From Dehalococcoidia bacterium (GTDB taxonomy: Bacteria > Chloroflexota > Dehalococcoidia > Lucifugimonadales > CAZENU01), in NCBI GenBank assembly GCA_965222125.1, contig CBDCTC010000006.1, positions 408,435-472,434 of the forward strand: a stretch of 64,000 nt of DNA. The letters run 5' to 3'. The translations under genes were made by a program, and so were the position numbers. The notes beneath the pieces were generated by a model. It was not told the origin of the DNA, did no database searches, and was given only the letters and a program-made list of their open reading frames with translations. Positions 1,050-33,600 of this stretch are shown one piece after another. How positions within the stretch are numbered: position 1 is the stretch's first letter; each line of letters opens with the position of its first letter.

Positions 1050-2683
<1,634 letters not shown>

Positions 2684-2697
2684 CTACCAGGATGCTA

Positions 2698-2728
2698 CCT
2701 TGCCAGCCTCGCGGGACTGGATTAAAGG
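2698..2728 (-). promoter_or_regulatory. candidate PyrR-binding stem-loop
   Basis: Minus strand CCUUUAAUCCAGUCCCGCGAGGCUGGCAAGG has a UCCAG...AGGCU core resembling the PyrR binding-loop consensus (UCCAGAGAGGCU). It lies 45 nt upstream of the terminator hairpin. Confidence 0.35.
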
Positions 2729-2901
2729 TCGTCGACTAGGTCCGGACGTCGCGTGTCAACGTGACCGGCATTGTACCCAATCGCCGCCGTCCGCTTCAAC
2801 CGCCCCCTTTTCCCAAACCGGTCGGTCTCCCGGCCTGGCGGCTTTGACTCGGCGGCGGCGGCGGCATAGAATCGAACGACCACGCACCGGAGACGCAACA
2901 T

Positions 2902-3531
2902 ATGTCAAAGATAGCCTTCGACGTATTCGCCGACTACGCCTGACCGTTCGTTCACAATGCAGCCGTGTGGCTGGATAGAGTAGCCAAGGCCGAGCCGGGA
3001 CTCATAGACGTCACCTGGAAGAGCTTCGTACTGGACCAGATCAACAGCAAGAACGGCCCTGACTGGAAGATCTGGGAGCAGGACGACCGGTACGACAGCC
3101 GCTCCCTGCTGTCGCTGCACGCCGGAGAGTCGGCGAAGCTGCAGGGCCGCGACGCGTTCGAGCGGTTCCATGTCGCGCTCCTCGTCGCCCGCCACGGCGG
3201 ACGCCGCCTGTCGCTTAACGACCGCGGCGCGCTCGTCGAGGTGGCGCGGGAGGTCGGCCTCGACGCCCCCCGGTTCGAGCAGGGGCTGGACGACCTCAGC
3301 CTGCTCGATAACATCGCCCGCGACCACAAGGAGGCGGTGGAGCAGCACGGGGTCTTTGGCACACCGACATTCCTGTTCGAGAACGGCACGTCGGCGTACC
3401 TGAAGTCCTTCGTACCGCCGGAGGACGACTCGGTCGACTTCTTCAACCATTTCGTCGCCATCTTCGCGGACCGTGCCTACGTAGGGGAGATCAAACGCCC
3501 CCAGCCTCCGTGGCCCAAGGGCGCCGTGTAG
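2902..3531 (+). CDS. DsbA/thioredoxin-fold oxidoreductase with in-frame TGA at 2941 (candidate selenocysteine codon)
   Basis: ATG 2902 gives MSKIAFDVFADYA-TGA-PFVHNAAVWLDRV..., in frame with the ORF-track ORF that starts at GTG 2965. The TGA sits where DsbA/FrnE-type proteins have the first active-site Cys. The cis-Pro motif GVFGTPTFLFENG is present in the C-terminal part. Confidence 0.6.
2957..2976 (+). promoter_or_regulatory. candidate bacterial SECIS hairpin
   Basis: AAUGCAGCC-GUGU-GGCUGGAUU: 5 perfect bp, then one G.G mismatch, then 2 more bp. The apical loop contains GU and its first G is 22 nt after the UGA. Confidence 0.4.
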
Positions 3532-3625
3532 CGCCGCCGCACCCGGGAGACCACTGCGTAAGTCCCTGCGGGAAACGGATGTGGTGGAGATGCGTAGATT
3601 TCGAAGCTGGGGACCCCCACTCTGG

Positions 3626-3645
3626 ATTCCCGCCTGCGCGGGAAT
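3626..3645. repeat. REP-like palindrome ATTCCCGC-CTGC-GCGGGAAT
   Basis: Perfect 8-bp stem in the intergenic space between the DsbA-like gene and rnc. It is the motif that reads ...VIPAQAGIQ... in the spurious antisense ORF 2905..3684. There is a single copy in this window. Confidence 0.4.
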
Positions 3646-3698
3646 GACGGTTATGCAAGGGTCTCCACTCGGCGTGAAGGGCATCGAGTTCGAGCGGG

Positions 3699-4415
3699 TT
3701 GCGGGTTAGGGAAAATGCCGTGAGCGACATAGGCGCTCTGGAGGCCGCTCTGGGAGTTGAGTTCAGAGACCGACGCCTTCTGGAGTTAGCGCTCGTCCAC
3801 GGTTCTTACCTGAACGAGAGTCCCGGCTCGTCCGAAGAGTCGAACGAGCGGCTGGAGTTTCTCGGCGACGCCGTGATAGGCGTGGCGGCGGCCCACGAGC
3901 TCTATCGGCGCAATCCCGAGTGGCCGGAAGGCCGGCTTAGCGAGGCCAGATCGGAGCTCGTGCGGGGTGAGACCCTCGCCCGCGTCGCGTCGCGGCTGGC
4001 GCTGGGCGACCATCTCAGGATGGGCAGGGGAGGGGCCTCCAGCGGAGGTCGACAGAGTCCGAGCGTGCTCGCCTCGGCGCTCGAGGCGGTCGTCGGCGCC
4101 CTGTTTCTCGACCGAGGCTACCCCGATGCCGAGGCCCTGGCGCTTCGACTGCTGGAGCCCGAGATGCCTCGGCTCGAGCGGCCGTCGGCTGCCCGGAACC
4201 CGAAGTCGGCTCTGCAGGAGGCTTTGCAGGCGGCGGGAGCGGAGCTGCCCACGTACAGCATCGTCGACGTCACGGGCCAGGATCCCACGCGGCAGTTCAC
4301 GGCCGAGGTGTGCATCGACGGCCGTGTGCTCGGCTCCGGCACGGGCCCTCGAAAGTCCACAGCGGAGCGCCGCGCGGCGGAGGCGGCGCTCGCGGCGATG
4401 TCCGAACTCCGCTGA
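3699..4415 (+). CDS. rnc: ribonuclease III
   Basis: NERLEFLGDAV signature plus a C-terminal dsRBD (KSALQE...GSGTGPRKSTAERRAAEAAL). The start may be GTG 3720 rather than TTG 3699. Confidence 0.9.
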   Translation: MRVRENAVSDIGALEAALGVEFRDRRLLELALVHGSYLNESPGSSEESNERLEFLGDAVIGVAAAHELYRRNPEWPEGRLSEARSELVRGETLARVASRLALGDHLRMGRGGASSGGRQSPSVLASALEAVVGALFLDRGYPDAEALALRLLEPEMPRLERPSAARNPKSALQEALQAAGAELPTYSIVDVTGQDPTRQFTAEVCIDGRVLGSGTGPRKSTAERRAAEAALAAMSELR

Positions 4416-6060: not shown

Positions 6061-8064
6061 GATTTCCTCGTAACAAGGGGCTTTCGGGTTGGTACTGGGG
6101 AGTGAGGACGGTTTAGGTGTGGAGGGGTTGGATGTTCCGGTTGGGGCTTGTGTAGTGGCCGATGAGGTCGTTGTGGTGCGACCAACGCCGTCCGGGAAGA
6201 GATTACCGGGTTGGCAGCGTCACCCGCAAGGTCATGCAGCGGCGGGGACAGTGGCCAGGGCAGCCGGCCGGGCCAACGTCTCGTCCATCTCGATCAGTCG
6301 TGCCCCGACCATCCGCTTGACGTTGCATGCCAGGGCCTTGAGGTAGACGGCGAGCCGGACCCTCTCGCCGCCACGTACCCGTAAGCGGCCAAGACCATGG
6401 CGCCGTTTCATCTCCGAGTTCGTCCCCTCTATCCCCGCACGCAGCCCGTACCGTTTGCGCCACTGTCCGTCTGACTCTGCCGCACGCCTCCGTGCGATGT
6501 TCATCCTCGCCAGGTCCGCACTCAGCACGTAGGCTCCACCCCGTGACCACTCTCCCCCAAGCTCAGGGCGACTGCGCCACCTCACAGGACACCGGGCACG
6601 CAGCGCGCAGGGCTCACACACCGCCCGGGCGAAGTGTATCTCCACCCGCTCAGGCGCATCCTCATCCTCGTACTCCGCCACCGCCCCATGTCCCGCGGGA
6701 CACACCGCACTCCTCGTCGCCATAACGTCGATGTCAAAGTCAGCAGCAGTCAGTCTGACCGGCTCATCACCACCTCCGTCGGGTTCCTTGTGCGACCGGC
6801 CACCGACCGGGCTCACCAGCTCCGTACCCCTGCGCTCCGCCTCCCATCCGTTCCGGCCAGAACCATATGACGTGTCCGCCCACAGCTCCGAAGGACCTAT
6901 CCCCCGTTCACTCAACTCGTCGATCACCCGCGTCGTCACCACAGAGTCGCTGCCGCTCGATGGCGTGACCTCCACATGCGTGATCATCTGAACGGCGTTG
7001 TCGCTCTCACACGTCTCGGCCACCTGCACCTCGTATCCCTTCCCCTTGTGTCCGCTGTAGGTCACCGCAGGGTCGTGCGGTGTCTGCAGCGAGTCCGACC
7101 GCACATCCCTCGGCTCCCTCAGCGCTATCGGCACCTTCCCCTCTGCCGCATCGTCGTCATCCGCTCCGGGACGACTGTCCCTGTGACCACCCACGTGGCA
7201 CTGCTCGCGCAACAGCCGCTCCAACAGCCCGTACTCGTCCATCTGCGCCACCGCCGTCCCGCGGAACCGATCGACCAGCCGGTACACGTCGCGCGCGCAC
7301 ACCGACAGCCGGCGACGCCCCTCTTCCGAACGCGCGTCCTCGTATCGGGTTGCTTCTGCGGTCTCCTTCAGGTACCGCTGGGCCAGACTATCCCCAATCC
7401 CTTCTCCCAAGCCAGGGTGCTCACGGCTCACCGCCAGCAGAAACACCTGGATCGTCTCGCAGAACAGCCCCAACCGCGTCAACACCGCGATGTTGCTCAT
7501 GATGTGCGTAGAGTCAACGCGCTGCTTGCCTGTACGAAGACCCAGAGCCTCGATCATCCGGTCCGTCGTCTCGCAGAACGCCAACCGCCCCCCGTCGTGC
7601 TCCATCAACCGCACGCGGAAGTTGTGCAGCGTCTTTTGCGCAAGGTGTGCCTCCTCCATCTCCAACCCCAGCGCGTGATGCCACAGCAGGTTGAACTCCA
7701 ACTCCTCCAGGGCCTCGATGTCCGTCAGATCGAACATCTCCTTGAGCACCAGCACCCCGAGCACCGTCTGCACCGCGCGGTTGGGCCTCCCCATGTCCGC
7801 GCTGTACATCGCAGCGAACCGCTCCTCGTCTATCAGCGGCAGAGCCTCCTTCCGAAACACCTGCGCCCAACTCCTCCGCATCAGCCTTGCCTTCCTCGGC
7901 GTGATCAGAAACTCCGACTGCCATAAGCTCTCTTGAGGCTCTCTCGTTCGAAACATCGACTGCCTACTCCTGCTCCTGCTCCTGAGTCTTCTCTCCTCCA
8001 CCTTCTCCAGGACCTATTATCTTCAATCCCACAACCCTCAACCACGACTTTTTACGACAGAATC
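6061..8064 (-). mobile_element. IS element, 2004 bp (IS5/IS1182-superfamily-like), flanked by a 6-bp direct repeat AAGGTT
   Basis: Terminal inverted repeats GATTTCCTCGTAACAAG (6061-) and GATTCTGTCGTAAAAAG (reverse complement of -8064), about 13/18 identical. AAGGTT is present at 6055-6060 and 8065-8070. Excision restores the host ORF in frame. Confidence 0.75.
6232..8001 (-). CDS. DDE transposase
   Basis: 589-aa ORF. The C-terminus ...RYGLRAGIEGTNSEMKRRHGLGRLRVRGGERVRLAVYLKALACNVKRM is typical of IS5/IS1182-type DDE transposases. The N-terminal region resembles the InsH-like N-terminal domain. Confidence 0.8.
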   Translation of the reverse strand: MEERRLRSRSRSRQSMFRTREPQESLWQSEFLITPRKARLMRRSWAQVFRKEALPLIDEERFAAMYSADMGRPNRAVQTVLGVLVLKEMFDLTDIEALEELEFNLLWHHALGLEMEEAHLAQKTLHNFRVRLMEHDGGRLAFCETTDRMIEALGLRTGKQRVDSTHIMSNIAVLTRLGLFCETIQVFLLAVSREHPGLGEGIGDSLAQRYLKETAEATRYEDARSEEGRRRLSVCARDVYRLVDRFRGTAVAQMDEYGLLERLLREQCHVGGHRDSRPGADDDDAAEGKVPIALREPRDVRSDSLQTPHDPAVTYSGHKGKGYEVQVAETCESDNAVQMITHVEVTPSSGSDSVVTTRVIDELSERGIGPSELWADTSYGSGRNGWEAERRGTELVSPVGGRSHKEPDGGGDEPVRLTAADFDIDVMATRSAVCPAGHGAVAEYEDEDAPERVEIHFARAVCEPCALRARCPVRWRSRPELGGEWSRGGAYVLSADLARMNIARRRAAESDGQWRKRYGLRAGIEGTNSEMKRRHGLGRLRVRGGERVRLAVYLKALACNVKRMVGARLIEMDETLARPAALATVPAAA

Positions 8065-21643: not shown

Positions 21644-24600
21644 CTAGTTGGCCGGCACCGGAGCCGCGCCGGCTGTGGTAGCAACGGCCGCATCAGACCA
21701 GGGGCTCCAACCCGCTGCGTTACTGGCGCGCACCCGCACCGCGTAGGAAGTCCCCTCCGCTACGGTCTGCCCACTCCGGTTCACCAGGTTGTAGCCGGTC
21801 CCAGTCCCGGTGGGCGCGGGCTTCACGTCGGCGTAAGCGGAGTCTGCCGCCCCGGTCAGCTTGTATTGGATCCCGTAGCCGGTAATGGTCGAAGAACCGG
21901 CTGCCGGCGCGGCCCAGGTGACCCGGAAGGAGGTTTCCTTCACGTTGATAATCTCCGGCGCGGCCGGTTGGCCCGGCGGCGTGTCCGCCACATCCGTAAC
22001 GGTGATGCTCACCGCGATGCTGGCCGACAGCCCGCCGCCGTCGGTGGCGGTTACCGTCACCGAGTAGGAACTCTTACCCTCGTAGTCTAGGGCGCCCTGG
22101 GTCTGCAACTGGCCGCTGGCCGAGTCTATGGCGAAGTGGTCGTCGTCCGCCGTCGTACCCAAAGTGTAGGTGAGGGTGTCCCCGCCGTCCGGGTCGGTGG
22201 CCGTTACCGGGACACCGATGTCCGTCCCGGCGGCGGTATTCTCGGCCACGCTGACCGTTGCGGTGGCGGCGGCGAAGACCGGGGCCTGGTTGGCCGGGGC
22301 CGGCGCGGCGCCGGCTGTAGTGGCAACGGCCGGGTCAGACCAGGGGCCCCAGCCCTCTGCGTTACTGGCACGCACCCGCACCGCGTAGGAAGTCCCCTTG
22401 GCTACGCTCTGCCCACTCCGGTTCACCAAATTGTAGCCGGTGACGGTCCCGGTGGGCGTGGGCTGCACGCCAGCGTAAGCCGAGTCTTCCGCTCCGCCCA
22501 GCTTGTATTGGATGCCGTAGCCGGTAATGGTCGAAGAACCGGCTGCCGGCGCGGTCCAGGTGACCCGGAAGGAGGTTTGCACCACGTTGATAATCTCCGG
22601 CGCGGCCGGTTGGCCCGGCGGCGTACCCACCGACCGAGTGGACCTGGACGCCGACCGTGCTTGGCTACCGAACTCGGCCACTGTCTCTATGCCGTCGCCG
22701 TCCCAGTCCGCCTTCAGGGCCGGGTACTGGCTGGCCGAGCCCAGGTCCCAAGCCATTTCGCTGCCAGCCCGGTCGAGGAGGTCGGTGTAATCATCCCACT
22801 GCTGGTAGATTCCGGTGAAGGTTATGGTCCCCTGTAACTCAGCAGTAGTTGCCCCCACGCCACCCGGGGGGCTGGATCCCTGACCGCTGGTTTCGGTGTT
22901 CCAGTAGCTCTGGGAGACAGTGGGGGGTACGGGATCCTCCCAACCTGGCTGTAAAGCGCTTTTGCCGATCAGGCCGCCCGGTTTGTACCAAGCCGGCAGG
23001 GAGCCGGTGGAGTAGCTGTTTATGATTGTCCACTGGTTCACACCCACTAAACCGCCCGCGGCGCTACCAGACTCAACATTACCTGTAGCGTAAGTGTTCT
23101 TGATGAAGCCACCGTTGAAGCCTGCCAGTCCGCCCGCATCGCCTTGTGGACTTTGCACATCGCCGGTAGCATAGCTGGCCAGGATTCTCGATCCACGATT
23201 GTTGCTACCTACCAGCCCACCAGCCTCGCCCCTACGTGCATAGACATCGGCCGAAGAATAGCTGTCTTCCACGACACCGGCGATGTTGTTGTGGCCTACC
23301 AGCCCGCCCACGCTGTTACGCGACAGAGTTGCGCCGGACACCCGGCCTGTGGAATAGCAGGCGGTGATGATGCCGGTAGCGTTGGTTCCGACCAACGCCC
23401 CGGTCATGTTGTCTCCGCCCGTCACGTCGACGTTAATCAGACCGAGCCTGCGGATTGACACCCGTCGGTTAGTAGCGGTTTCGAGAGCGTCGGGGCTGTA
23501 ATCCGCGCCAATATAGCCGAACAGTCCGTTGTGATTACTCCCCAGGGACGCGCCGGGAACGCGCCGGTCAATGAACAGGTTGGGGATAGTGTGCCTGTTG
23601 CCTTCCATGATGGCAGTGAATGGGTTGGCGCCCGTACCGATGGGATCCCAGCCCTTGCCGGCGTTCCAGTAGGTGTCGATAGAGTTGGCGTCCTCGCTGC
23701 CGTCAGTGTCGAGGTTCAAGTTTTCGATCAATTCATAGCCGATGCAGTTGGGCGTGTTGGGGTTGTCATCGGTGTCGGGACAGCCCATATCAGCCCTGGC
23801 GTTGGGGAAGGCAGCAGCATAGCTGGCCTGGTTGGCGCTGACATCCACAGCGCCGTCGCCGTTCAGGTCCCAGCGGATGGCGTTCAGCTTGGCGAGAGTG
23901 TCCACATCGATGAGCCCGTCATTATCACTGTCGTAGTCGGTTCCGCCGTTGAGGTCGGTGGCCCTGACGGTGATCTTGGCGGTATCGTCGAAGGCGGTGT
24001 CGCGGTCACCATTGGCGTCCCGGCCGTCCCGCACCTTGACCTTGAGGGAGTATAAGGTGGTGCGCGTGGCGGGGTCGTGGGAGGCTCGGGCCTTCCGGAT
24101 GGGGGTGGCCTTGAAGGCCAAGGCGCCGCTGGCGCTGTCGAGGGTGAAGTAGTCGTGGTCCCCGGTAGCCTCCAGGGCGTAGAACAGGATCTCCCCGGCG
24201 TCCGGGTCCTCGGCGTCCAACTTCCCTACCTCGGTGACGCCCTCGGCGATGCTGAACTCGGCGGCGGGGAAGACCGGGGCCTCGTTGACGTCGGTTACGT
24301 TGACCGTCACCTCGATGCTGGCGTCGGCCGCCGGGGTCGCCTCGACTGAGCCGTCGGCGTCCCTGCCGTCGGAGGCGTTCACCGTCAGCTTATAGGACCT
24401 CCTGGTCTCGTAGTCCAGGGCCCCCTTGGTCTGCAGCTGGCCCGTGGCCGGGTCGATGGCGAAGTGGCCGTCGTCCTCCGTCGCGCCCAGGCTGTAGCTC
24501 AGCGTGGCCCCCGCGTCCGGGTCCTGGGCCCTGACCGGGGCGCCGATGTTCGCCTTGGCGGCGGTGTTCTCCGCCACGCTCCGGGTGGTGGTGGCGGCCG

Positions 24601-27600
24601 GGAAGACCGGGGGTTCGTTCACGTCGGTTACGCTGACATCCACGTCGGCGCTGTCGTCGAAGCCGATGTCGTCGTCGCCGTCGGCGTTCCGGCTGTCCCG
24701 CACCTTGACCCTCAGTCTGTAGGCCGCCTTCTCCTCCCGGTTGGCGGGCTCCTTCAGGGCCAGGACCCCGCCGCTGCTCAGGGTGAACTCGTCGTGATCC
24801 CCGGTGGTGGTGTCCAGTTCGTAGAACAGGGTGTCGTCGTCGGCGTCTTCGTCCCTGGCCGCCAGGGTCCCCACGCTGGTGACGCCCTCCAGGATGCTGA
24901 ACTCGACGTCGGCCAGCACCGGGGGTTCGTTCAGGTCGGTGACCGTGACCTCCACCGCCGCGCTGGCGCTGTTGCCGGCGCCGTCGGTGGCGATCACCGT
25001 CAGGTTGTGGGTCCCCTTGCGCTCGTGGTCCAGGGCCGCCTTCGTCTGCAGCTGCCCGCTGGACGAGCCGACGGCGAAGTTGGCCCCGTCCGTTCCCCCA
25101 AGGGTGTAGGTCAGCGTGGCCCCCGCGTCCGGGTCGGCGGCGGTGATCGGGTCGCCGATGTCGGTCCCGGGCGCCGTGTTCTCCGCCACGCTCCGGGTGG
25201 TGGTGGCGGCGGGGAAGACCGGGGCCTCGTTGACGTCGGTTACGTTGACCGTCACCTCGATGCTGGCGTCGACCGCCGGGGTCGCCTCGACTGAGCCGTC
25301 GGCGTCCCTGCCGTCGGAGGCGTTCACCGTCAGCTTATAGGACCTCTTGGCCTCGTAGTCCAGGGCCCCCTTGGTCTGCAGCTGGCCCGTGGCCGGGTCG
25401 ATGGCGAAGTGGCCGTCGTCCTCCGTCGCGCCCAGGCTGTAGCTCAGCGTGGCCCCCGCGTCCGGGTCCTGGGCCCTGACCGGGGCGCCGATGTTCGCCT
25501 TGGCGGCGGTGTTCTCCGCCACGCTCCGGGTGGTGGTGGCGGCCGGGAAGACCGGGGGTTCGTTCACGTCGGTTACGCTGACATCCACGTCGGCGCTGTC
25601 GTCGAAGCCGGTGTCGTCGTCGCCGTCGGCGTTCCGGCTGTCCCGCACCTTGACCCTCAGTCTGTAGGCCGCCTTCTCCTCCCGGTTGGCGGGCTCCTTC
25701 AGGGCCAGGACCCCGCCGCTGCTCAGGGTGAACTCGTCGTGATCCCCGGTGGTGGTGTCCAGTTCGTAGAACAGGGTGTCGTCGTCGGCGTCTTCGTCCC
25801 TGGCCGCCAGGGTCCCCACGCTGGTGACGCCCTCCAGGATGCTGAACTCGACGTCGGCCAGCACCGGGGGTTCGTTCAGGTCGGTGACCGTGACCTCCAC
25901 CGCCGCGCTGGCGCTGTTGCCGGCGCCGTCGGTGGCGATCACCGTCAGGTTGTGGGTCCCCTTGCGCTCGTGGTCCAGGGCCGCCTTCGTCTGCAGCTGC
26001 CCGCTGGACGAGCCGACGGCGAAGTTGGCCCCGTCCGTTCCCCCCAGGGTGTAGGTCAGCGTGGCCCCCGCGTCCGGGTCGGCGGCGGTGATCGGGTCGC
26101 CGATGTCGGTCCCGGGCGCCGTGTTCTCCGCCACGCTCCGGGTGGTGGTGGCGGCGGGGAAGACCGGGGCCTCGTCCACGTCGGTTACGTTGACCGTCAC
26201 CTCGATGCTGGCGTCGACCGCCGGGGTCGCCTCGACTGAGCCGTCGGCGTCCCTGCCGTCGGCGGCGTTCACCGTCAGCTTATAGGACCTCTTGGTCTCG
26301 TAGTCCAGGGCCCCCTTGGTCTGCAGCTGGCCCGTGGCCGGGTCGATGGCGAAGTGGCCGTCGTCCTCCGTCGCGCCCAGGCTGTAGCTCAGCGTGGCCC
26401 CCGCGTCCGGGTCGGCGGCCCTGACCGGGGCGCCGATGTTCGCCTTGGCGGCGGTGTTCTCCGCCACGCTCCGGGTGGTGGTGGCGGCCGGGAAGACCGG
26501 GGGTTCGTTCACGTCGGTTACGCTGACGTCCACGTCGGCGCTGTCGTCGAAGCCGGTGTCGTCGTCGCCGTCGTCGTTCCGGCTGTCCCGCACCTTGACC
26601 CTCAGTCTGTAGGCCGCCTTCTCCTCCCGGTTGGCGGGCTCCTTCAGGGCCAGGACCCCGCCGCTGCTCAGGGTGAACTCGTCGTGATCCCCGGTGGTGG
26701 TGTCCAGTTCGTAGAACAGGGTGTCGTCGTCGGCGTCTTCGTCCCTGGCCGCCAGGGTCCCCACGCTGGTGACGCCCTCCAGGATGCTGAACTCGACGTC
26801 GGCCAGCACCGGGGGTTCGTTCAGGTCGGTGACCGTGACCTCCACCGCCGCGCTGGCGCTGTTGCCGGCGCCGTCGGTGGCGATCACCGTCAGGTTGTGG
26901 GTCCCCTTGCGCTCGTGGTCCAGGGCCGCCTTCGTCTGCAGCTGCCCGCTGGACGAGCCGACGGCGAAGTTGGCCCCGTCCGTTCCCCCAAGGGTGTAGG
27001 TCAGCGTGGCCCCCGCGTCCGGGTCGGCGGCGGTGATCGGGTCGCCGATGTCGGTCCCGGGCGCCGTGTTCTCCGCCACGCTCCGGGTGGTGGTGGCGGC
27101 GGGGAAGACCGGGGCCTCGTCCACGTCGGTTACGTTGACCGTCACCTCGATGCTGGCGTCGACCGCCGGGGTCGCCTCGACTGAGCCGTCGGCGTCCCTG
27201 CCGTCGGCGGCGTTCACCGTCAGCTTATAGGACCTCTTGGTCTCGTAGTCCAGGGCCCCCTTGGTCTTCAGCTGGCCCGTGGCCGGGTCGATGGCGAAGT
27301 GGCCGTCGTCCTCCGTCGCGCCCAGGCTGTAGCTCAGCGTGGCCCCCGCGTCCGGGTCGGCGGCCCTGACCGGGGCGCCGATGTTCGCCTTGGCGGCGGT
27401 GTTCTCCGCCACGCTCCGGGTGGTGGTGGCGGCGGGGAAGACAGGGGGTTCGTTGGGGCGTTGGATGCCGAACTCCTGCCAGGTGGGCGCTGTGTCATCG
27501 TCAAAGTCCGCGTTGAGCACCGGGTACTCGGCATCGCTGCCGAAGTCCCATGGGTTGTCCCCGAGGGGAATGTCTTGGCCAGTGTCATCGCCCCAGATTA

Positions 27601-30600
27601 AGTCAACGTCCCATTCAGAGTGGAGGCCCTCGTACTTGGTGGACTTCTGCAACTGCTCGGTGGTCAGCCCTCTGCCGCCGGCGCTTGTCTTCAGCCCGGA
27701 GGTTTCGGTATCCCAGTAGCTACTCACGATCTGGCTGCCGAGGCCCGGCGCTTGTATGCCCACCAGCCCGCCGACATCTCTGACGCCGGTCACCGCGCCC
27801 CTGGAGTAGCTCACCGTGATGGAACCGGGCTTGCCAGCGCTGTCCCCATTTTGGCCCACTAGCCCCCCGACGTTGTTATTGCCGGATACCGCGCCGGTGG
27901 CATAGCTGGCCAGCACGGTGCCTTCGTTGAGGGCGACCAGCCCGCCAGCCCTTCCCAGGGACCCGGTGGCCTCCACTGCGGCCTGAGAATAGGACACCTC
28001 AATATGCCCCTTGTTGCGACCCGCCAGGCCACCGACGTAACTGGAGCCGCTGACCGAGACGCCAGCAGAGTCCATGAAGCCCTTGGAGATGCCGACGTAG
28101 CTGGCTTCGATGATGCCGGAGTTTTCGGCCACCAGTCCGCCCACAGTGGTGCCGATGCCGGTTACGGAACCGGCTACGTAGCTGCGCCGAATCGTTCCAC
28201 CAAGGATTTGCCCGGCCAACCCGCCGACATAAGAATTTCCAGTTACGTCGACGTTATCCAGCCCCAGATGTTGGATGACGCTGCCGGTATCGTCTTCCAG
28301 CCCCAAGGAGCCGAACAGCCCCAGATAGTATTCCGCCGGCCGGTTGATGAACAGGTTGGATATGACGTGGCGGTTGCCCTCGAACTCGCCGCTGTACGTG
28401 TCCACTTCAAGAGCGACAGCGCCTCCTACGCGGTACTCCCTGGTAACTCCCAGAATGGGCTTCCAGCCCTTGCCGTCGTTCCAGTAGGCGTCGCCGGAGC
28501 TGGGCCCCTCGGTGCTGTCGGTGTCGAAGTCCAGGTCGGCCTCCAGTTCGTAGCCGGTGCAGCCGCTGTCGGGGCAGCCCATGTTGGGGAGGGGCTTGGG
28601 GAAGGCGGCGTAATAGCTGGTGGCGTCAACGTGGAGGGGAGTTCCCTTACCCTCCCAGTCCCAGCGGACGGCGTCAAGCTGGGACAGAGTGGTGATTTCA
28701 ATTAGGTGGTCATTATCGGCGTCGTAATCCACCGAATCTACGGACCCTTCGTCCACGTCGGTTACGTTGATCGTTACTCGGACAGTGATCTTCTGCTGGT
28801 CGGAGGCGGTGGCGGTCAGGAGTACGATGTAGGAACTTTTGGTCTCGTAGTCCAGGGCGAGCTTGGTCTTCAACTGGCCGTTTTTAGGGTTTATCTCAAA
28901 AAACGCGGCATCCCCCGTATTGGAGGGCGGAGAGTCAACTCCTTCCAAACCGTAGGTGGGCGCCGGACCGTTCAGGGCGATAGCGGTCACCGGCTTACCG
29001 ATGGCCAGGCCAGCCCCGGAGTTCTCTGCCACATTGCGCTGGACGTTGGGTCCCTCGAGGAAGATGGGTGAACCGGCGGGTCTTTGATCGCCGAACTCCT
29101 CCCAGGTGGCTTTGCCGTCGTTGTCGAAGTCCACCTTAAGAACCGGGTAGTTGAACTCCGAGCCGAAGTCCCATGGGTCGTCCACGTCAGTGGCGAGGTC
29201 GTTGTCCTCGTCGGCGTTGTCCCAGTCGATGTTCCAGTCGGCGTAAATGTCCGAGCCGGTCCCATACTCGGTGGGGCTTCTCAGTTCGGCGGTGGTCTTG
29301 CCCACACCGTCGGCGGCGCTGACCGTCTGCCTGGAGGTTTCCGTGTTCCAATAGCTGTTGGTGACAGTGCCGCTTCGATCCCATCCCACCAACCCGCCAT
29401 ATGGCTGCGGGGCGCTTACCTTGCCGGTGGAGTAGCTGCCGGTAACGCTGCCGTCAGCCAGCATACCCACCAGCCCGCCAGCCATGTAGGTGCCGGTCAC
29501 ATCACCGGTGGAGTAAGAGGCCGTTATGCGGCCGCGGTAATTGGCGCCCGCCAAGCCGCCGACATAGCTATTCCGGCTGGGGTCGTTGAGCGCGTTGGCT
29601 TGAGAATAGCTGGCGTGGATGGAGCCTGTGTTATAGCCCACCAGTCCGCCCAGGTCTCTGGAACTGCTGACGGAGCCGGAACTGTAGCTGACCTCGATGA
29701 TACCGGCGTTATAGCCCGCCAGTCCGCCCACGATGGAGTCGCCCTCAATGTCCCCGGCAACTCCGATGCGCTGAACCATGCCGCTATTCCTAACGAATCC
29801 GACCAGTCCGCCCACTCGGTTCTTCCCGGTTACCTGTACGCCCTCCAGCTTCAGTCCGTAAACTCTACCGCCGATAACGCCGAACAGTCCCTGATAGTCC
29901 TCAGTGGGCCGTTGGATGTGCAGGTTGGAAATGGTGTATTGATTGCCTGCGAAGACGCCGGTGTACGGATGGTAGAGGCCGCCGATGGACTGCCAGCCTT
30001 TGCCGGCGTTCCAGTAGTCATCGCCGGAGCTGGGCCCCTCGGTGCTGTCGGTGTCGAAGTCCAGGTTCGCCACCAGCTCATATCCCTTGCAGCCGCTGTC
30101 GGGGCAGCCCATGTTGGGCTTGGGCCTGGGGAAGCCCCTGAAATAGGCAGCGGCGTCGGCCCGCGCCGGGATTCCGTCGCTGTCCAGGTCGTGGCGGATG
30201 GCGTCTAAGTGGGCCAGGGTGGTGATATCGATGAAGCCATTATCATCGGCGTCATAGTCCACCGACACCCCGGACCCTTCGTCCACGTCGGTTACGTTGA
30301 TGGTCACCTCAATGCTGTCGGTCTCCCCGGCGGTGTCGGTGGCGGTCAGGTCTATGGTGTAGGAACTTTTGGTCTCGTAGTCCAGGTTGAGCTTGGTCCT
30401 CAGCTGTCCGGTGGCGGGGTCCACTGTAAAATAATGGTGGTCGCCGCTGCTCATGGTTTCCAGGTGGTAGACCATCTCCCGGCTCCCGCCGTCGCGGTCG
30501 GTGGCGACCAGGGGACGGCCGAGGGCCACGCCGGGCAGGGCGTCCTCCGCCACGGTGCGTTTGGCGGAATCCCCGGCCCTGAAGATCGGCGGCATGATGC

Positions 30601-33600
30601 GATCCTGACTGCCGAACTCCTGCCAAGTGGCCCGGCCGTCGTCGTTGTAGTCCGCCTTCAGCAACGGGTAATGGCTGTCCAACCCGAAGTCCCACGGGGC
30701 ATCGCCGTCGCCATCGCCGTTCAGGTCCAGGTTCCAAGCGGCGTAGATACCCCTGTAGCCTGTGAGCCCTTTCAGCTCGGCGGATGTCTTGCTTAATCGG
30801 GCGGGGACATTCGTCCCATGACCGGCTCCTGCCACTGCTGAGGAGGTTTGAACGTCCCAGTAGCTGTTGACGAAGCCGCCGCCTGCCATCCAACCCACCA
30901 GCCCGCCCGCAAATCTGCCAGCCACTCTCACAGTGGTGTAGCTGGCTGCGACACTGCCAAGGTTATAGCCCACCAACCCGCCAGCGGCAATGTCGGCGCT
31001 CGCTTTCCCGGTGGCGTAGCTGGCTCTTATAGAGCCACGATGGTCTCCAACGAGACCGCCAGCCCATCCTCTAACCCCCAGCAGCGTGGTGGCGGCGATG
31101 TCTTTGGCGGTCACCTCGACTTGGGCGTAGCTGGCCTGGACCGTCCCATAGTTCAAGCCAATCAGCCCCCCGGCGACGGCTCCGGTCACCGAGCCGGCAA
31201 AATAGCTGGCCGTGACGGTGCTGCCCAGCATATTGCTGCCCACCAGGCCACCGGCTGAGGCTTCTCCGCCGTTGACGGAGCCAGTAGCGTAACTGCTCCG
31301 AATCGAACTGGACGCCCTAGTTCGTCCAGTCAGGGCGCCGGTGCTGGCGCCGCCGGTTATGTCCACATTCTCCAGCCCCAAGTTGCGAACCGCCCCCTGG
31401 ATATCTCCGAACAGGCCTTGGAAGCCGTCGGCAGCGTCGGGACGATTGATGAATAGATTGGAAATAACGTGCCTGTTGCCCTCGAAGACGCTGGTGTACG
31501 GGCCGGAATTGTCGCCGATGGACTGCCAGCCCTTGCCGCCGTTCCAGTAGGCGTCGCCGGAGCTGGGCCCCTCGGTGCTGTCGGTGTCGAAGTCCAGGTT
31601 GCCCATCAACTCGTATCCCTTGCAGCCGCTGTCGGGGCAGCCCATGTTGAGGGCGGGCCTGGGGAAGCCGGCGTAATAGCTGGCAGCGTCGGCGGAGAGA
31701 GGAGCTCCCTGACCCTTCCGGTCCCAGCGGACGGCGTTCAGATGGGACAGAGTGGTGATATCAATTAGGCCGTCATCATCGGAGTCATAGTCCACCGAAT
31801 TCCCGGAGCCTCCGTCCACGTCTTTTACATGGATGTATACCACGATGGAGGTCCGATTGTTGTCTATGTCGGTGGCGATTACGCGCATGTCATGAGAACG
31901 CCGGCTCTCGTAGTCCAGAGTGCGTAGGGTCTTGATCTGGCCGCTGTCAGGGTCTATCTCAAAAAATGCATAGTCCCTCGCAAAGACGGGGTGAGGGCCT
32001 ATTGTTTCCAGACTGTAGGTGGGCGCCGGACCGTCCGGGTCGAAGGCGGTCACCGGATTACCAATCTCCAGACCGGCCCCGGCGTTCTCTGCCACGCTGC
32101 GTCGCACGGGAGATTCCGCGTGGAAGACGGGCGGGCGCACGGGGCGCTGTTGGCCGAATTCCTGCCAGGTGGCCCGTTTGTCCCCATCGAATTTCACCTT
32201 CAGCGCCGGGTATTCGTCGTTGGCCCCGAAGTCCCACGGGTCGTCCGGACCAGTGGAGTATTGGCCGTCCTCATCTTCGTTGTCCCAGTCGATGTTCCAG
32301 GCGGAGTATTGAGCCGGGAAGCTGCCGTATGCGGTGGGGCTTCTCAGTTGGGCGGTGGTTCTTCCTTGCCCACCGAGTGTACCGGCCACCTCGCCGGCGC
32401 TGCTCGTCTGAGTGGAGGATTCGGTGTTCCAGTAAGTGCTGACGTGGACACTGCTGTTGGCTTCCGCCTTCCCCACCAGCCCGCCAACATCGACATTCCC
32501 CAGGCTGGTCACCCTGCCGGTGGAATAGCCGGTTAGTATGGAGCCTGCATTTACGCCCACCAGCCCGCCAATGCCAACTGGGTTGGCTGTCTGGCCGGTG
32601 GTCACCTGGCCGGTGGCGTAGCTGGCTAGAATTGTGGCTCCGGCATCATTTCTGCCCACCAATCCGCCGATGGATGCTGTACCGATTACGCGGGCCTGGG
32701 AGTAGCTGACCCTGATGAAGCCTTTGTTTACGCCCACCAGTCCGCCGATAGTGCTGTCGCCGGTTATGCTGCCGGTGGCGTAGCTGGCCTGGATGTCGCC
32801 TTCATTGTAGGCCGCCAGTCCTCCGACTCCGCCGAGGACGGCCGAGAGGGAGGCGTCGCTGACGGAACTGCGCTTGATCGAACTTCCGGCTGTGGCGGAT
32901 CCCGTGATTCCGCCAACTGCAAACTTAGCGTGTATTGTGACGTTCTTCAGCCTGAGGTTGCGAACCTCACCACCGATTGCGGCGAACAGGCCCGCGTAAT
33001 TCTTGTCAGGGCGAGAGATGTACAGGGTGGATATGGAGTGGCGGTTGCCCTCGAAGGCGCCGCTGTACGGCACATCCTTGCTGCCGATGGGCGCCCAGCC
33101 CAGGCCGCCGTTCCAGAAGGTGGCGTCCGCGCCGGTAATCGTATTGTCGTTGTTCTCATCGAAATCCAGGTTTCCAATCAGTTCGTAGCCTATGCAGCCG
33201 CTGTCGGGGCAGCCCATGTTGGCGGCGGGCCTGGGGAAGGCGGCGTAATACTTGGCGGCGTTGGCGCGGGGAGGCTCTCCCCTCCCCTCGCGGTCCCAGC
33301 GGACGGCGTTCAGCTGGGACAGCGTGGTGATATCAATTAGGCGGTCATTATCGAGGTCGTAATCCACCGAATTTCCGGAGCCTTCGTCCACGTTTCTTAC
33401 ATTGACGATTACCTCCTTGCTGGTCTGATGGCCGTCTATGTCTGTTGCGATCACGAGCAGGCGGTAAGAACTTTTGGTTTCGTAGTCCAGCGTGCGCTTG
33501 GTCTTCAGTTGGCCGCTGACCGGATCCATCGCAAAGTATTCGGCATACTGTCCGCCGAGGCCGTATCCGGGCGCCGGGCCGTCCGGGTCGAAGGCGGTCA

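What the first reader, a model, noticed from the sequence alone, without database searches (positions are those of the whole stretch)
2902..3531. In-frame TGA at the active-site position of a DsbA-like oxidoreductase, followed by a SECIS-like hairpin: candidate selenoprotein
- The ORF track starts this gene at GTG 2965. The same frame is open from ATG 2902 (GGAG 9 nt upstream) and is interrupted only by TGA 2941-2943: MSKIAFDVFADYA-[TGA]-PFVHNAAVWLDRV...
- In DsbA/FrnE-type thioredoxin-fold proteins this N-terminal strand reads ...F.D..CP.C..., so the TGA falls exactly on the first redox Cys. The truncated version would lack the active site altogether.
- The rest of the fold is intact, including the cis-Pro loop GVFGTPTFLFENG.
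- From 13 nt after the TGA there is a hairpin, AAUGCAGCC-GUGU-GGCUGGAUU (2957-2976), with a GU-containing apical loop. The loop G is 22 nt after the UGA, which is compatible with bacterial SECIS geometry.
- The second position of the motif is not Cys (U-P-F-V), so this would be a single-Sec enzyme.
Basis: partly seen in the sequence, partly recalled or inferred. Interest (0 to 1): 0.7.

Follow-up and report, generated by a model that had tools for sequence, protein, structure and literature searches.

The report
Selenocysteine-containing DsbA-like oxidoreductase gene
This gene encodes a thioredoxin-fold (DsbA-like) redox enzyme whose single catalytic residue is very probably selenocysteine, encoded by a UGA "stop" codon; gene callers therefore cut off its active site here and in its relatives in Dehalococcoidia/SAR202 bacteria, but the kind of protein is already known.

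Summary
ATG 2902 to TAG 3531 is one reading frame, broken only by TGA 2941-2943.

- **Conserved TGA.** All 84 gene copies examined (the window, 80 loci from Dehalococcoidia/SAR202 genomes and 3 tandem paralogues) have TGA at this column. So do 4 of 4 more divergent relatives.
- **Upstream coding.** The 13 codons before the TGA are conserved as protein. In 73 of 84 copies they follow a start codon with a Shine-Dalgarno-like motif.
- **Cys homologues.** Full-length homologues carry TGC (Cys) at this column, in the motif D-x-x-C-P-[FYW]-[VA].
- **SECIS hairpin.** It lies at 2956-2977, with a GUGU loop 21 nt after the UGA. Alone it is no better than chance. Across the family, synonymous sites are nearly frozen only over it. 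Divergent Sec forms keep a hairpin at the same place with different sequence, and two divergent Cys forms lack it.
- **Fold.** The protein is a cytoplasmic-type, single-redox-residue DsbA-like protein. Its closest solved structure is Deinococcus DR2335 (TM 0.80).
- **Not shown.** No Sec machinery lies in the 64 kb window, and the rest of the genome could not be searched. The literature lists Dehalococcoidia MAGs among the most selenoprotein-rich bacteria.

DsbA-like selenoproteins are known, including a catalogued "DxxUP" form that fits this motif.

The parts
2889..2892 (+). Shine-Dalgarno-like GGAG, 9 nt upstream of the true start codon
   Evidence: Read directly from the sequence. An SD-like motif plus a start codon lies 13-14 codons upstream of the TGA in 73 of 84 family copies.
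2902..3531 (+). Full coding sequence of the DsbA-like selenoprotein: 209 residues with Sec at residue 14, stop TAG 3529-3531
   Evidence: Translation. Pfam DSBA covers residues 7-170. tblastn matches query residues 1-209 in most of the 80 genome loci (residue 1-8 to 207-209 in all). GC3 is 0.87, against 0.67 for the overlapping antisense ORF.
2941..2943 (+). In-frame TGA read as selenocysteine (residue 14), at the N-terminus of helix alpha-1 of the thioredoxin fold
   Evidence: TGA in 84 of 84 copies and in 4 of 4 divergent relatives. TGC (Cys) in homologues. In the AlphaFold2 model of a Cys homologue, Cys14 sits between strand 4-10 and helix 15-31.
2956..2977 (+). SECIS-type hairpin. Core stem 2960-2964 with 2969-2973, loop GUGU 2965-2968, outer A-U pairs 2957-2958 with 2975-2976
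   Evidence: Stability is -6.8 kcal/mol for the core and -9.8 extended. 96% of cells are paired across 84 sequences, against 13-44% for slid controls. Third-position entropy at codons 19-24 is 0-0.75 bits, against 1.4-1.95 at 4-fold and 6-fold sites elsewhere. Divergent Sec forms keep a hairpin at the same place with different sequence.
2965..2967 (+). GTG (Val22) that gene callers take as the start codon. It lies in the hairpin loop and is not a real start
   Evidence: ORF list. Database homologues begin at this position. No SD-like motif precedes it in any of the 84 copies.
3349..3372 (+). GVFGTPTF, the cis-proline loop of the thioredoxin fold (T154-P155)
   Evidence: G150, F152, G153, P155, T156 and F157 are invariant. 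In the model the loop precedes strand 157-160.
3699..4415 (+). RNase III gene (rnc), the conserved downstream neighbour on the same strand. This is context only; no functional link is shown
   Evidence: Pfam Ribonuclease_3 plus dsrm. rnc lies downstream on the same strand in 70 of the sources searched.

Best explanation
Window 2902-3531 encodes a 209-residue, cytoplasmic-type DsbA-like thioredoxin-fold protein. Its only redox-active residue is selenocysteine at position 14 (motif D-Y-A-U-P-F-V).

**Decoding (inferred from the known bacterial mechanism).**
- When the ribosome reaches UGA 2941-2943, SelB-GTP carrying Sec-tRNA(Sec) is held by the mRNA hairpin at 2956-2977. Its apical loop GUGU starts 21 nt after the UGA.
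- SelB then delivers Sec in competition with release factor 2.
- The base after the UGA is C in all 84 copies, as the Pro codon requires. By general knowledge this is a weak termination context.

**Chemistry (inferred).**
- There is no resolving Cys and no other Cys in the protein. The selenol therefore has to work by a monothiol-type mechanism.
- It would attack a disulfide, mixed disulfide or other electrophile. The resulting selenenyl-sulfide would be resolved by an external thiol, either a low-molecular-weight thiol or a partner protein.
- Cys-type relatives are fused to dephospho-CoA kinase in four separate sequence clusters. This makes coenzyme A a candidate thiol partner, but it is only a lead.

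**What is shown.** The conserved in-frame UGA, the Cys/Sec column, the DsbA-like fold, and selection on the hairpin.

**What is inferred.** SelB-dependent decoding in this organism, and the enzyme's substrate.
For: 1. **Conserved UGA.**
   - TGA occupies the column in 84 of 84 copies at 49-98% protein identity.
   - It is also present in 4 of 4 more divergent relatives.
2. **Coding on both sides of the UGA.**
   - The upstream 13 codons are conserved as protein and vary at third positions.
   - A start codon with an SD-like motif lies 13-14 codons upstream in 73 of 84 copies.
   - Pfam DSBA starts at residue 7.
3. **Cys homologues.**
   - The codon is TGC in L081-L083, L090 and L091.
   - 37 full-length representatives carry D-x-x-C-P-[FYW]-[VA].
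   - The solved homologue DR2335 has its active Cys24 in DFLCPYAW.
4. **RNA element.**
   - Third-position entropy at 4-fold and 6-fold sites is 1.44-1.95 bits across the gene. At codons 20-24 it is 0.75, 0.44, 0.22 and 0.0.
   - Asn19 uses AAT in 76 of 82 copies, although other Asn codons prefer C. Ala20 uses GCA in 69 of 82 copies, whereas A is never the commonest third base at the other conserved Ala codons. Position +35 is T in 74 of 84. Each of these bases pairs in the stem.
   - 96% of cells are paired, against 13-44% when the partners are slid.
5. **Published bacterial SECIS criteria are met.**
   - The loop is 4 nt and begins with GU.
   - The spacing from the UGA is 21 nt.
   - The stem is 5+2 bp.
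   - The extended hairpin has a free energy of -9.8 kcal/mol.
6. **Structure kept while sequence changes.**
   - Divergent Sec forms have hairpins with the apical loop starting at +20 to +24. Their loops are GGUC, GUU, GGUCUG and AUUUG, at -7.0 to -12.6 kcal/mol.
   - Two divergent Cys forms have no such hairpin.
7. **TGA is an ordinary stop elsewhere.**
   - 5 of 18 long ORFs end in TGA.
   - Two ORFs of 4995 and 6234 codons contain no TGA.
   - No other in-frame-TGA gene candidate exists in the window.
8. **Lineage.**
   - Two Dehalococcoidia MAGs are among the ten most selenoprotein-rich bacteria in BSepDB, with 49 and 46 genes (PMC13326102).
   - The supplementary trait table of PMC5029168 marks Dehalogenimonas '+' in its first three columns. 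I read these as SelD, SelA and SelB, although the column headings were not in the retrieved text.
9. **Fold.**
   - The AlphaFold2 model of the Cys homologue has pLDDT 91.5.
   - Foldseek gives TM 0.80 to DR2335.
Against: - No selA, selB or selD (tblastn with the E. coli proteins) and no tRNA at all were found in the 64 kb window. None was found in the roughly 6 kb flanks of the related loci either. The rest of the genome could not be searched.
- The hairpin is short. Alone it is not statistically distinguishable from background.
- No Rfam family matches the region.
- Classical compensatory covariation within the close family is sparse, because the element is almost invariant.
- The comparison of divergent Sec forms with divergent Cys forms rests on 4 and 2 sequences.
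- One divergent Sec form (L086) has a loop, AUUUG, without G in its first two positions.
- There is no experimental evidence of selenium incorporation.
Confidence: 0.9

Rival explanations
1. The annotated 188-residue protein starting at GTG 2965 is the real product. The TGA then terminates a 13-codon upstream ORF, a leader peptide or a remnant, and the hairpin is a regulatory or chance structure.
For: Gene callers predict this form here and in almost all database relatives. The hairpin alone is not significant.
Against: - The truncated product would lack strand beta-1, the active-site residue and the first turns of helix alpha-1.
- The 13 upstream codons are conserved as the D-x-x-[U/C]-P motif in all copies, and they are contiguous with the rest of the protein in Cys forms.
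- No SD-like motif precedes the internal GTG in any of the 84 copies.
- The internal 'start' is not conserved. Callers pick M/V at different codons (MWLDRV, VHNAAVWL, MYNSAVWL).
Confidence: 0.03
2. The UGA is read through without the Sec system. It could be decoded as Trp, Cys or Gly by a near-cognate or suppressor tRNA, or under a reassigned genetic code, with the hairpin acting only as a read-through stimulator.
For: Sec machinery was not found in the window. Some pipelines translate the codon as Trp (P0181 and P0243).
Against: - The checked 'W' call (P0181) comes from applying code 4 to a TGA codon.
- TGA is used as a normal stop in the window and is absent from 11,000 codons of giant ORFs.
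- The column is the catalytic Cys in homologues, which is the signature of Sec rather than Trp or Gly.
- The hairpin has the loop sequence and spacing of SelB-binding elements.
- The lineage is documented as Sec-using.
Confidence: 0.05
3. The TGA is a sequencing or assembly error, or an inactivating mutation, so the gene is a pseudogene.
For: A single-base change separates TGA from TGC, and rare close relatives carry TGC.
Against: The TGA is identical in 84 of 84 independent assemblies of different species (short-read and long-read MAGs), and in divergent relatives. There are no other disruptions, and purifying selection is strong along the whole frame.
Confidence: 0.01

Closest known systems
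DsbA-like selenoprotein 'form 2', motif DxxUP, PF01323 (table in the 2026 review PMC13188914, credited to Peng et al. 2016; example MDP6049977.1)
   Same: Same Pfam domain. It has one Sec, and the stated motif DxxUP fits D11-Y-A-U14-P15 here and in all 84 relatives.
   Different: [quoted passage not shown] Whether it is the same family, or a different (perhaps fused) DSBA-domain protein, is unknown. The DxxSP/DxxCP stretch is common to several PF01323 subfamilies (my own knowledge of GST kappa and HCCA isomerase).
DsbA-like selenoprotein 'form 1' (Sargasso Sea, Zhang, Fomenko & Gladyshev 2005; COG2761/FrnE type, UxxC)
   Same: A DsbA/FrnE-type thioredoxin fold with Sec at the first redox position, and a bacterial SECIS directly downstream of the UGA.
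   Different: That family has a resolving Cys (UxxC). Here the fourth position is Val or Ala (U-P-[FYW]-[VA]), and the window protein contains no Cys at all.
DR2335 of Deinococcus radiodurans (PDB 7DK9/7DKA), a DsbA-like protein with a single conserved Cys
   Same: It is the best structural and sequence match among solved structures. Foldseek gives TM 0.80 at 28-30% identity, and the profile search gives E=3e-15. It has the same single-residue motif (DFLC24PYAW) and the same C-terminal RP-P tail. It appears to lack a signal peptide, so it is predicted cytoplasmic.
   Different: It has Cys rather than Sec, comes from a different phylum, and has no reported functional data (PMC8945050).
Rv2466c (mycoredoxin-2) and FrnE, cytoplasmic DsbA-like reductases that depend on low-molecular-weight thiols or a C-terminal CxxxxC
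   Same: The same fold class (Foldseek E about 1e-8, TM 0.65-0.70). Some Cys relatives weakly match Pfam Rv2466c-like. They serve as a model for thiol-dependent reductase chemistry.
   Different: Those enzymes have CPWC dithiol motifs. Identity is only about 20%.
E. coli fdhF/fdnG SECIS, and the consensus bacterial SECIS model
   Same: A hairpin inside the coding region just after the UGA. The loop is small and begins with G followed by U or G. The spacing lies within 16-37 nt. One relative (L087) even has the loop GGUC, which by my own recollection (not checked here) is the loop of the E. coli fdhF SECIS.
   Different: The stem sequence is different. No bulged U is evident, and no Rfam model matches.

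Membership tests
Bacterial selenoprotein gene (UGA decoded as Sec) | In-frame UGA conserved among orthologues, with coding conservation on both sides | tested here: met
   TGA in 84 of 84 copies and in 4 of 4 divergent relatives. The upstream 13 codons and the downstream frame are conserved.
Bacterial selenoprotein gene (UGA decoded as Sec) | Homologues carry Cys at the aligned position | tested here: met
   TGC in L081-L083, L090 and L091. 37 of 39 full-length representatives have Cys, and the checked one of the 2 'W' forms is TGA in the DNA. DR2335 has Cys24 there.
Bacterial selenoprotein gene (UGA decoded as Sec) | Bacterial SECIS: upper stem of 4-16 bp, apical loop of 3-9 nt with G in its first two positions followed by G or U, 16-37 nt from the UGA, free energy of -7.5 kcal/mol or lower | tested here: met
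   5+2 bp stem, GUGU loop, 21 nt spacing, -9.8 kcal/mol (criteria, computation). Geometry alone is common: 38-50% of TGAs in the window pass it. The real support is the synonymous constraint and the conserved position with changed sequence.
Bacterial selenoprotein gene (UGA decoded as Sec) | selA, selB, selC (tRNA-Sec) and selD present in the same genome | not testable with these tools
   None lies in the 64 kb window or in the locus flanks. Published tables appear to mark the Sec trait present in Dehalogenimonas and list two Dehalococcoidia MAGs with 46-49 selenoprotein genes.
Bacterial selenoprotein gene (UGA decoded as Sec) | Selenium demonstrably incorporated into the protein | not testable with these tools
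   This needs 75Se labelling or mass spectrometry.
DSBA-like thioredoxin domain (Pfam PF01323) | Match to the family profile above the curated cut-off, and a thioredoxin fold with an inserted helical domain | tested here: met
   52.8 bits against a cut-off of 25.6, covering residues 7-170. The AlphaFold2 model of a 61%-identical Cys homologue has pLDDT 91.5. Its best solved matches are all DsbA-like proteins.
Classical DsbA / FrnE dithiol oxidoreductases | CxxC (or UxxC) active site with a resolving Cys | tested here: not met
   The motif is U-P-F-V. The fourth position is Val or Ala in all 84 copies, and the window protein has no Cys.
Classical periplasmic DsbA | N-terminal signal peptide for export | tested here: not met
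   The protein starts directly with strand beta-1 (residues 4-10 in the model) and has no hydrophobic leader. This is by inspection; no dedicated predictor was run.
DsbA-like selenoprotein form 2 (DxxUP) | PF01323 domain with one Sec in the motif DxxUP | tested here: met
   D11-Y12-A13-U14-P15. The motif is conserved in the family.
DsbA-like selenoprotein form 2 (DxxUP) | Sequence relationship to the catalogued exemplar MDP6049977.1 | not testable with these tools
   The exemplar's sequence was not retrievable.
Rfam SECIS families | Match to a curated covariance model | tested here: not met
   No match in 2850-3100 even at E<=10. Only PyrR passes the gathering threshold anywhere in the window.

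The most novel reading that the evidence does not exclude
This is a selenoprotein family that no catalogue resolves: a single-Sec, DR2335-type DsbA-like enzyme, widespread in Dehalococcoidia/SAR202 genomes, and truncated in nearly all of the predicted-protein entries seen here. Its chemistry would be tied to coenzyme A, because Cys-type relatives occur as fusions to dephospho-CoA kinase in four separate sequence clusters. It could, for example, be a CoA-dependent mixed-disulfide (de-CoAlation) reductase, which would make it part of an undescribed low-molecular-weight-thiol redox system in this lineage.
Probability: 0.15. Interest if true: 0.55.

Novelty: new member of a known kind. Interest (0 to 1): 0.35.

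Why it matters
**Annotation.**
- In almost every database entry seen here, the protein is truncated at the residue after the hairpin loop and so loses its catalytic residue. NCBI's 'DsbA family protein' MCH8206211.1 is one example.
- At least 452 candidate stretches in species-representative genomes encode a relative.
- No NCBIfam model covers the family. A family model with a Sec column would correct these annotations.

**Biology.**
- The gene adds a widespread, conserved selenoprotein to SAR202/Dehalococcoidia, an abundant deep-ocean and sediment lineage that has been reported as selenoprotein-rich.
- It gives a natural Sec/Cys pair for a single-redox-residue DsbA-like enzyme. Its Cys counterpart DR2335 has a crystal structure but no known function.
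- The CoaE fusions offer a testable functional lead.

None of this would surprise a selenoprotein specialist.

Tried and rejected
- **Single-sequence folding of 2941-3000.** It was not significant (z = -0.08). I dropped it as evidence.
- **Rfam.** No SECIS match at the gathering threshold or at E<=10.
- **RNAalifold.** It recovered only a 4-bp core with no compensatory pairs, because the element is almost invariant in close relatives. I replaced it with the synonymous-site test and with divergent relatives.
- **Sec machinery.**
  - tblastn with E. coli SelA, SelB and SelD against the window and 83 loci gave one weak hit, in L069.
  - That hit is a 383-aa SelA-like PLP enzyme, shorter than E. 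coli SelA (463 aa) and matching it only weakly (28% identity over 182 residues). I did not count it as SelA.
  - ARAGORN found no tRNA-Sec.
  - I found no way to query the rest of the source genome.
- **Second selenoprotein gene in the window.** A scan for in-frame TGAs with high GC3 on both sides returned only this gene plus artefacts.
- **Exact look-up of U-containing full-length sequences.** I had wanted to see whether NCBI already annotates them as selenoproteins.
- **Source contig.** The window's own 188-aa product is not on record, so the source contig could not be identified.
- **coaE next to the gene.** None was found in the window or in the loci.
- **Rejected readings.**
  - Pseudogene or sequencing error.
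  - An upstream leader ORF followed by a truncated protein.
  - A reassigned genetic code.
Full report
**1. The observation**

The mechanical ORF list starts the gene at GTG 2965 and ends it at 3531, giving 188 aa. The same frame is open from ATG 2902 and is interrupted only by TGA 2941-2943. GGAG lies at 2889-2892, 9 nt before the ATG.

The read-through product is MSKIAFDVFADYA-[TGA]-PFVHNAAVWLDRV... It contains GVFGTPTFLFENG. With Cys placed at the TGA, Pfam DSBA (PF01323) matches residues 7-170 at E=5.7e-14 and 52.8 bits, against a cut-off of 25.6. The domain therefore begins upstream of the stop codon.

The hairpin is real, with small corrections:
- The 3' arm is GGCUGGAUA.
- The core is five pairs, 2960-2964 with 2969-2973.
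- There is a G.G mismatch, followed by two A-U pairs.
- The loop is GUGU (2965-2968).

By itself the hairpin means little. Folding 2941-3000 gives z = -0.08. Some hairpin of loose SECIS geometry follows 38-50% of all TGA triplets in this 64.6% G+C window, and 5-7% reach -7.5 kcal/mol with an uninterrupted stem. No Rfam model matches.

**2. Comparative evidence for recoding**

A protein search returned 874 relatives. Nearly all of the best 120 are 188-195 aa and begin at MWLDRV, [MV]HNAAVWLDRV or similar, just after the TGA column. Only three are full length, and these read ...DIYADYACP[YW]VYNAAVWLDRV.

One scan of species-representative genomes found at least 452 relatives, and the best 80 loci were kept. 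All are Dehalococcoidia, SAR202 or Chloroflexota MAGs. The closest is contig CBDHDR010000002.1, at 98% identity.

I extracted the column from the DNA:
- All 84 gene copies have TGA. These are the window, the 80 loci and three tandem paralogues, at 49-98% protein identity.
- The 13 preceding codons are conserved as ..D[VI][FY].D[YF].-. They vary at third positions, which is the signature of translation.
- A start codon with an SD-like motif lies 13-14 codons upstream of the TGA in 73 of 84 copies. None of the 84 has such a motif before the internal GTG that gene callers use.

The three full-length close homologues carry TGC at the column.

A search of 1.84 billion cluster representatives with a Cys homologue gave the wider picture. 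Among the best 150:
- 37 are full length, with D-x-x-C-P-[FYW]-[VA] and no second Cys in the motif.
- 26 begin just after the column.
- 2 show Trp there. The one I checked is TGA in the DNA, called under genetic code 4.

Four divergent 'truncated' representatives all have an in-frame TGA at the same column, preceded by the conserved D-Y-x motif.

TGA is otherwise an ordinary stop here. It ends 5 of 18 long ORFs and is absent from two ORFs of 4995 and 6234 codons. No other gene in the window has a plausible in-frame TGA.

**3. Evidence that the hairpin is a selected RNA element**

I built a codon-aware alignment of the 84 genes and measured third-position entropy at conserved residues:
- At 4-fold and 6-fold degenerate residues it is 1.44-1.95 bits everywhere in the gene.
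- The exception is codons 20-24 (Ala, Ala, Val, [Trp], Leu), where it is 0.75, 0.44, 0.22 and 0.0 bits.
- Asn19 scores 0.38, against 0.7-0.94 for most other 2-fold sites.

The fixed bases go against the gene's own codon preference:
- Asn19 is AAT in 76 of 82 copies, although other Asn codons prefer C.
- Ala20 is GCA in 69 of 82 copies, whereas A is never the commonest third base at the other conserved Ala codons.
- Position +35 is T in 74 of 84 copies, although other Asp codons prefer C.

Each of these bases pairs in the proposed stem.

The seven-pair structure is formed in 96% of cells, against 13-44% when partners are slid by 1-3 columns. There are a few double changes in the outer pairs.

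The element meets the published bacterial SECIS criteria (review PMC13188914; computed):
- The loop is 4 nt and begins with GU.
- It lies 21 nt from the UGA.
- The stem is 5+2 bp.
- The free energy is -9.8 kcal/mol.

The four divergent Sec forms keep a hairpin whose apical loop starts at +20 to +24, but with different sequences. Their loops are GGUC, GUU, GGUCUG and AUUUG, at -7.0 to -12.6 kcal/mol. Two divergent Cys (TGC) forms have no such hairpin. The three close Cys forms still carry the ancestral hairpin, consistent with recent Sec-to-Cys changes. The sample is small, but the pattern is what a SECIS predicts.

**4. What the protein is**

An AlphaFold2 model of the 61%-identical natural Cys homologue is confident, with pLDDT 91.5. 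It puts Cys14 between strand 4-10 and helix 15-31, the canonical thioredoxin-fold active-site position. The T-P cis-proline loop comes before strand 157-160.

Structural matches:
- The best solved match is the DsbA-like protein DR2335 of Deinococcus radiodurans (7DK9/7DKA), at TM 0.80 and 28-30% identity.
- It is followed by Rv2466c, FrnE, YjbH and GST kappa.

DR2335 carries DFLC24PYAW at the same place. It is described as a predicted cytoplasmic DsbA-like protein with a single conserved Cys and no functional data (PMC8945050).

The window protein has no signal peptide and no Cys. The selenol must therefore act alone and be recycled by an external thiol. That step is inference.

Four representative clusters are fusions of dephospho-CoA kinase (CoaE) to a Cys-type domain of this family. 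This is a lead towards coenzyme A as the partner thiol, nothing more. No coaE lies next to the gene in the window or in the loci.

The conserved neighbour is RNase III, downstream on the same strand in 70 of the sources searched.

**5. Sec machinery**

- No tRNA gene lies in the window.
- No SelA, SelB or SelD homologue lies in the window or the locus flanks.
- The one weak hit, in L069, is a 383-aa SelA-like PLP enzyme and was not counted as SelA.

Published data support the lineage:
- The supplementary trait table of PMC5029168 marks Dehalogenimonas and many other Chloroflexi '+' in its first columns. I read these as SelD, SelA and SelB.
- BSepDB lists two Dehalococcoidia MAGs, with 49 and 46 selenoprotein genes, among the ten richest bacteria. 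One carries a UUID-style isolate name like several of the loci found here (PMC13326102).

**6. Comparison with what is known**

DsbA-like selenoproteins have been known since the Sargasso Sea analysis, which described a UxxC form of the COG2761 type (PMC1088965).

[quoted passage not shown] The present family reads D-Y-A-U-P, which fits form 2 and not form 1. I could not retrieve the exemplar to test identity.

NCBIfam has no model for the family. Its only match is a weak partial hit to the Rcas_1661 selenolipoprotein model, far below cut-off. NCBI names a truncated member 'DsbA family protein'.

**7. Verdict**

- Confidence that residue 14 is selenocysteine inserted via the downstream hairpin: about 0.9.
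- Rival readings together: under 0.1. These are a truncated protein, Sec-independent read-through, and error or pseudogene.
- Novelty: a new (or newly recognised) member of a known kind, possibly already catalogued as DsbA-like form 2.
- Interest: modest. The practical point is that the annotation error appears systematic across a large, ecologically important lineage. The scientific leads are the Sec/Cys pair for a structurally solved but functionally unknown enzyme, and the CoaE fusions.

Noticed in passing
window 21644-36631 (-) and 40402-59106 (-): Two giant ORFs of 4995 and 6234 codons are packed with Cadherin (11-14 significant stretches each), bacterial cadherin-like, GLUG, fn3, Big_9 and RibLong domains. 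They are probably giant surface adhesin-like proteins and occupy about half of the window.
   Followed up: partly
window 2621-2732 (-), with 2063-2659 (-) and 1050-2447 (-): A PyrR binding site (Rfam RF00515, 54.7 bits, just above the gathering score) lies upstream of a PyrR-type phosphoribosyltransferase gene and an aspartate carbamoyltransferase gene. This pyr operon is transcribed divergently from the selenoprotein gene.
   Followed up: partly
window 6232-8001 (-): A 589-aa DDE transposase (DDE_Tnp_1_6, DUF772), i.e. an insertion sequence, lies 2.7 kb downstream of the gene.
   Followed up: no
L057 (2081 and 3040), L062 (2242 and 3040), L070 (2129 and 2914): Three genomes carry two tandem copies of the Sec-containing DsbA-like gene. 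Both copies have TGA and the hairpin.
   Followed up: no
L076:3040-3093: One relative has a diverged peptide (AAVLLEAAK) after the TGA. In place of the usual hairpin there appears to be a different one, CGCCGC...GCGGCG. I noticed this by eye in the alignment.
   Followed up: no
proteins P0144, P0149, P0197, P0209 (not in the window): These are fusions of dephospho-CoA kinase (CoaE) to a Cys-type domain of this DsbA-like family, in four separate 50%-identity clusters. They hint at a functional link to coenzyme A.
   Followed up: partly
L092:233-322 (protein P0181); also P0243: Some public gene calls translate the Sec codon as Trp, because genetic code 4 was applied to short contigs. The DNA has TGA.
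   Followed up: yes
window 2905-3684 (-): A 259-codon antisense ORF overlaps the whole selenoprotein gene. Its GC3 is 0.67, against 0.87 for the sense frame, so it is a spurious high-GC shadow ORF.
   Followed up: yes
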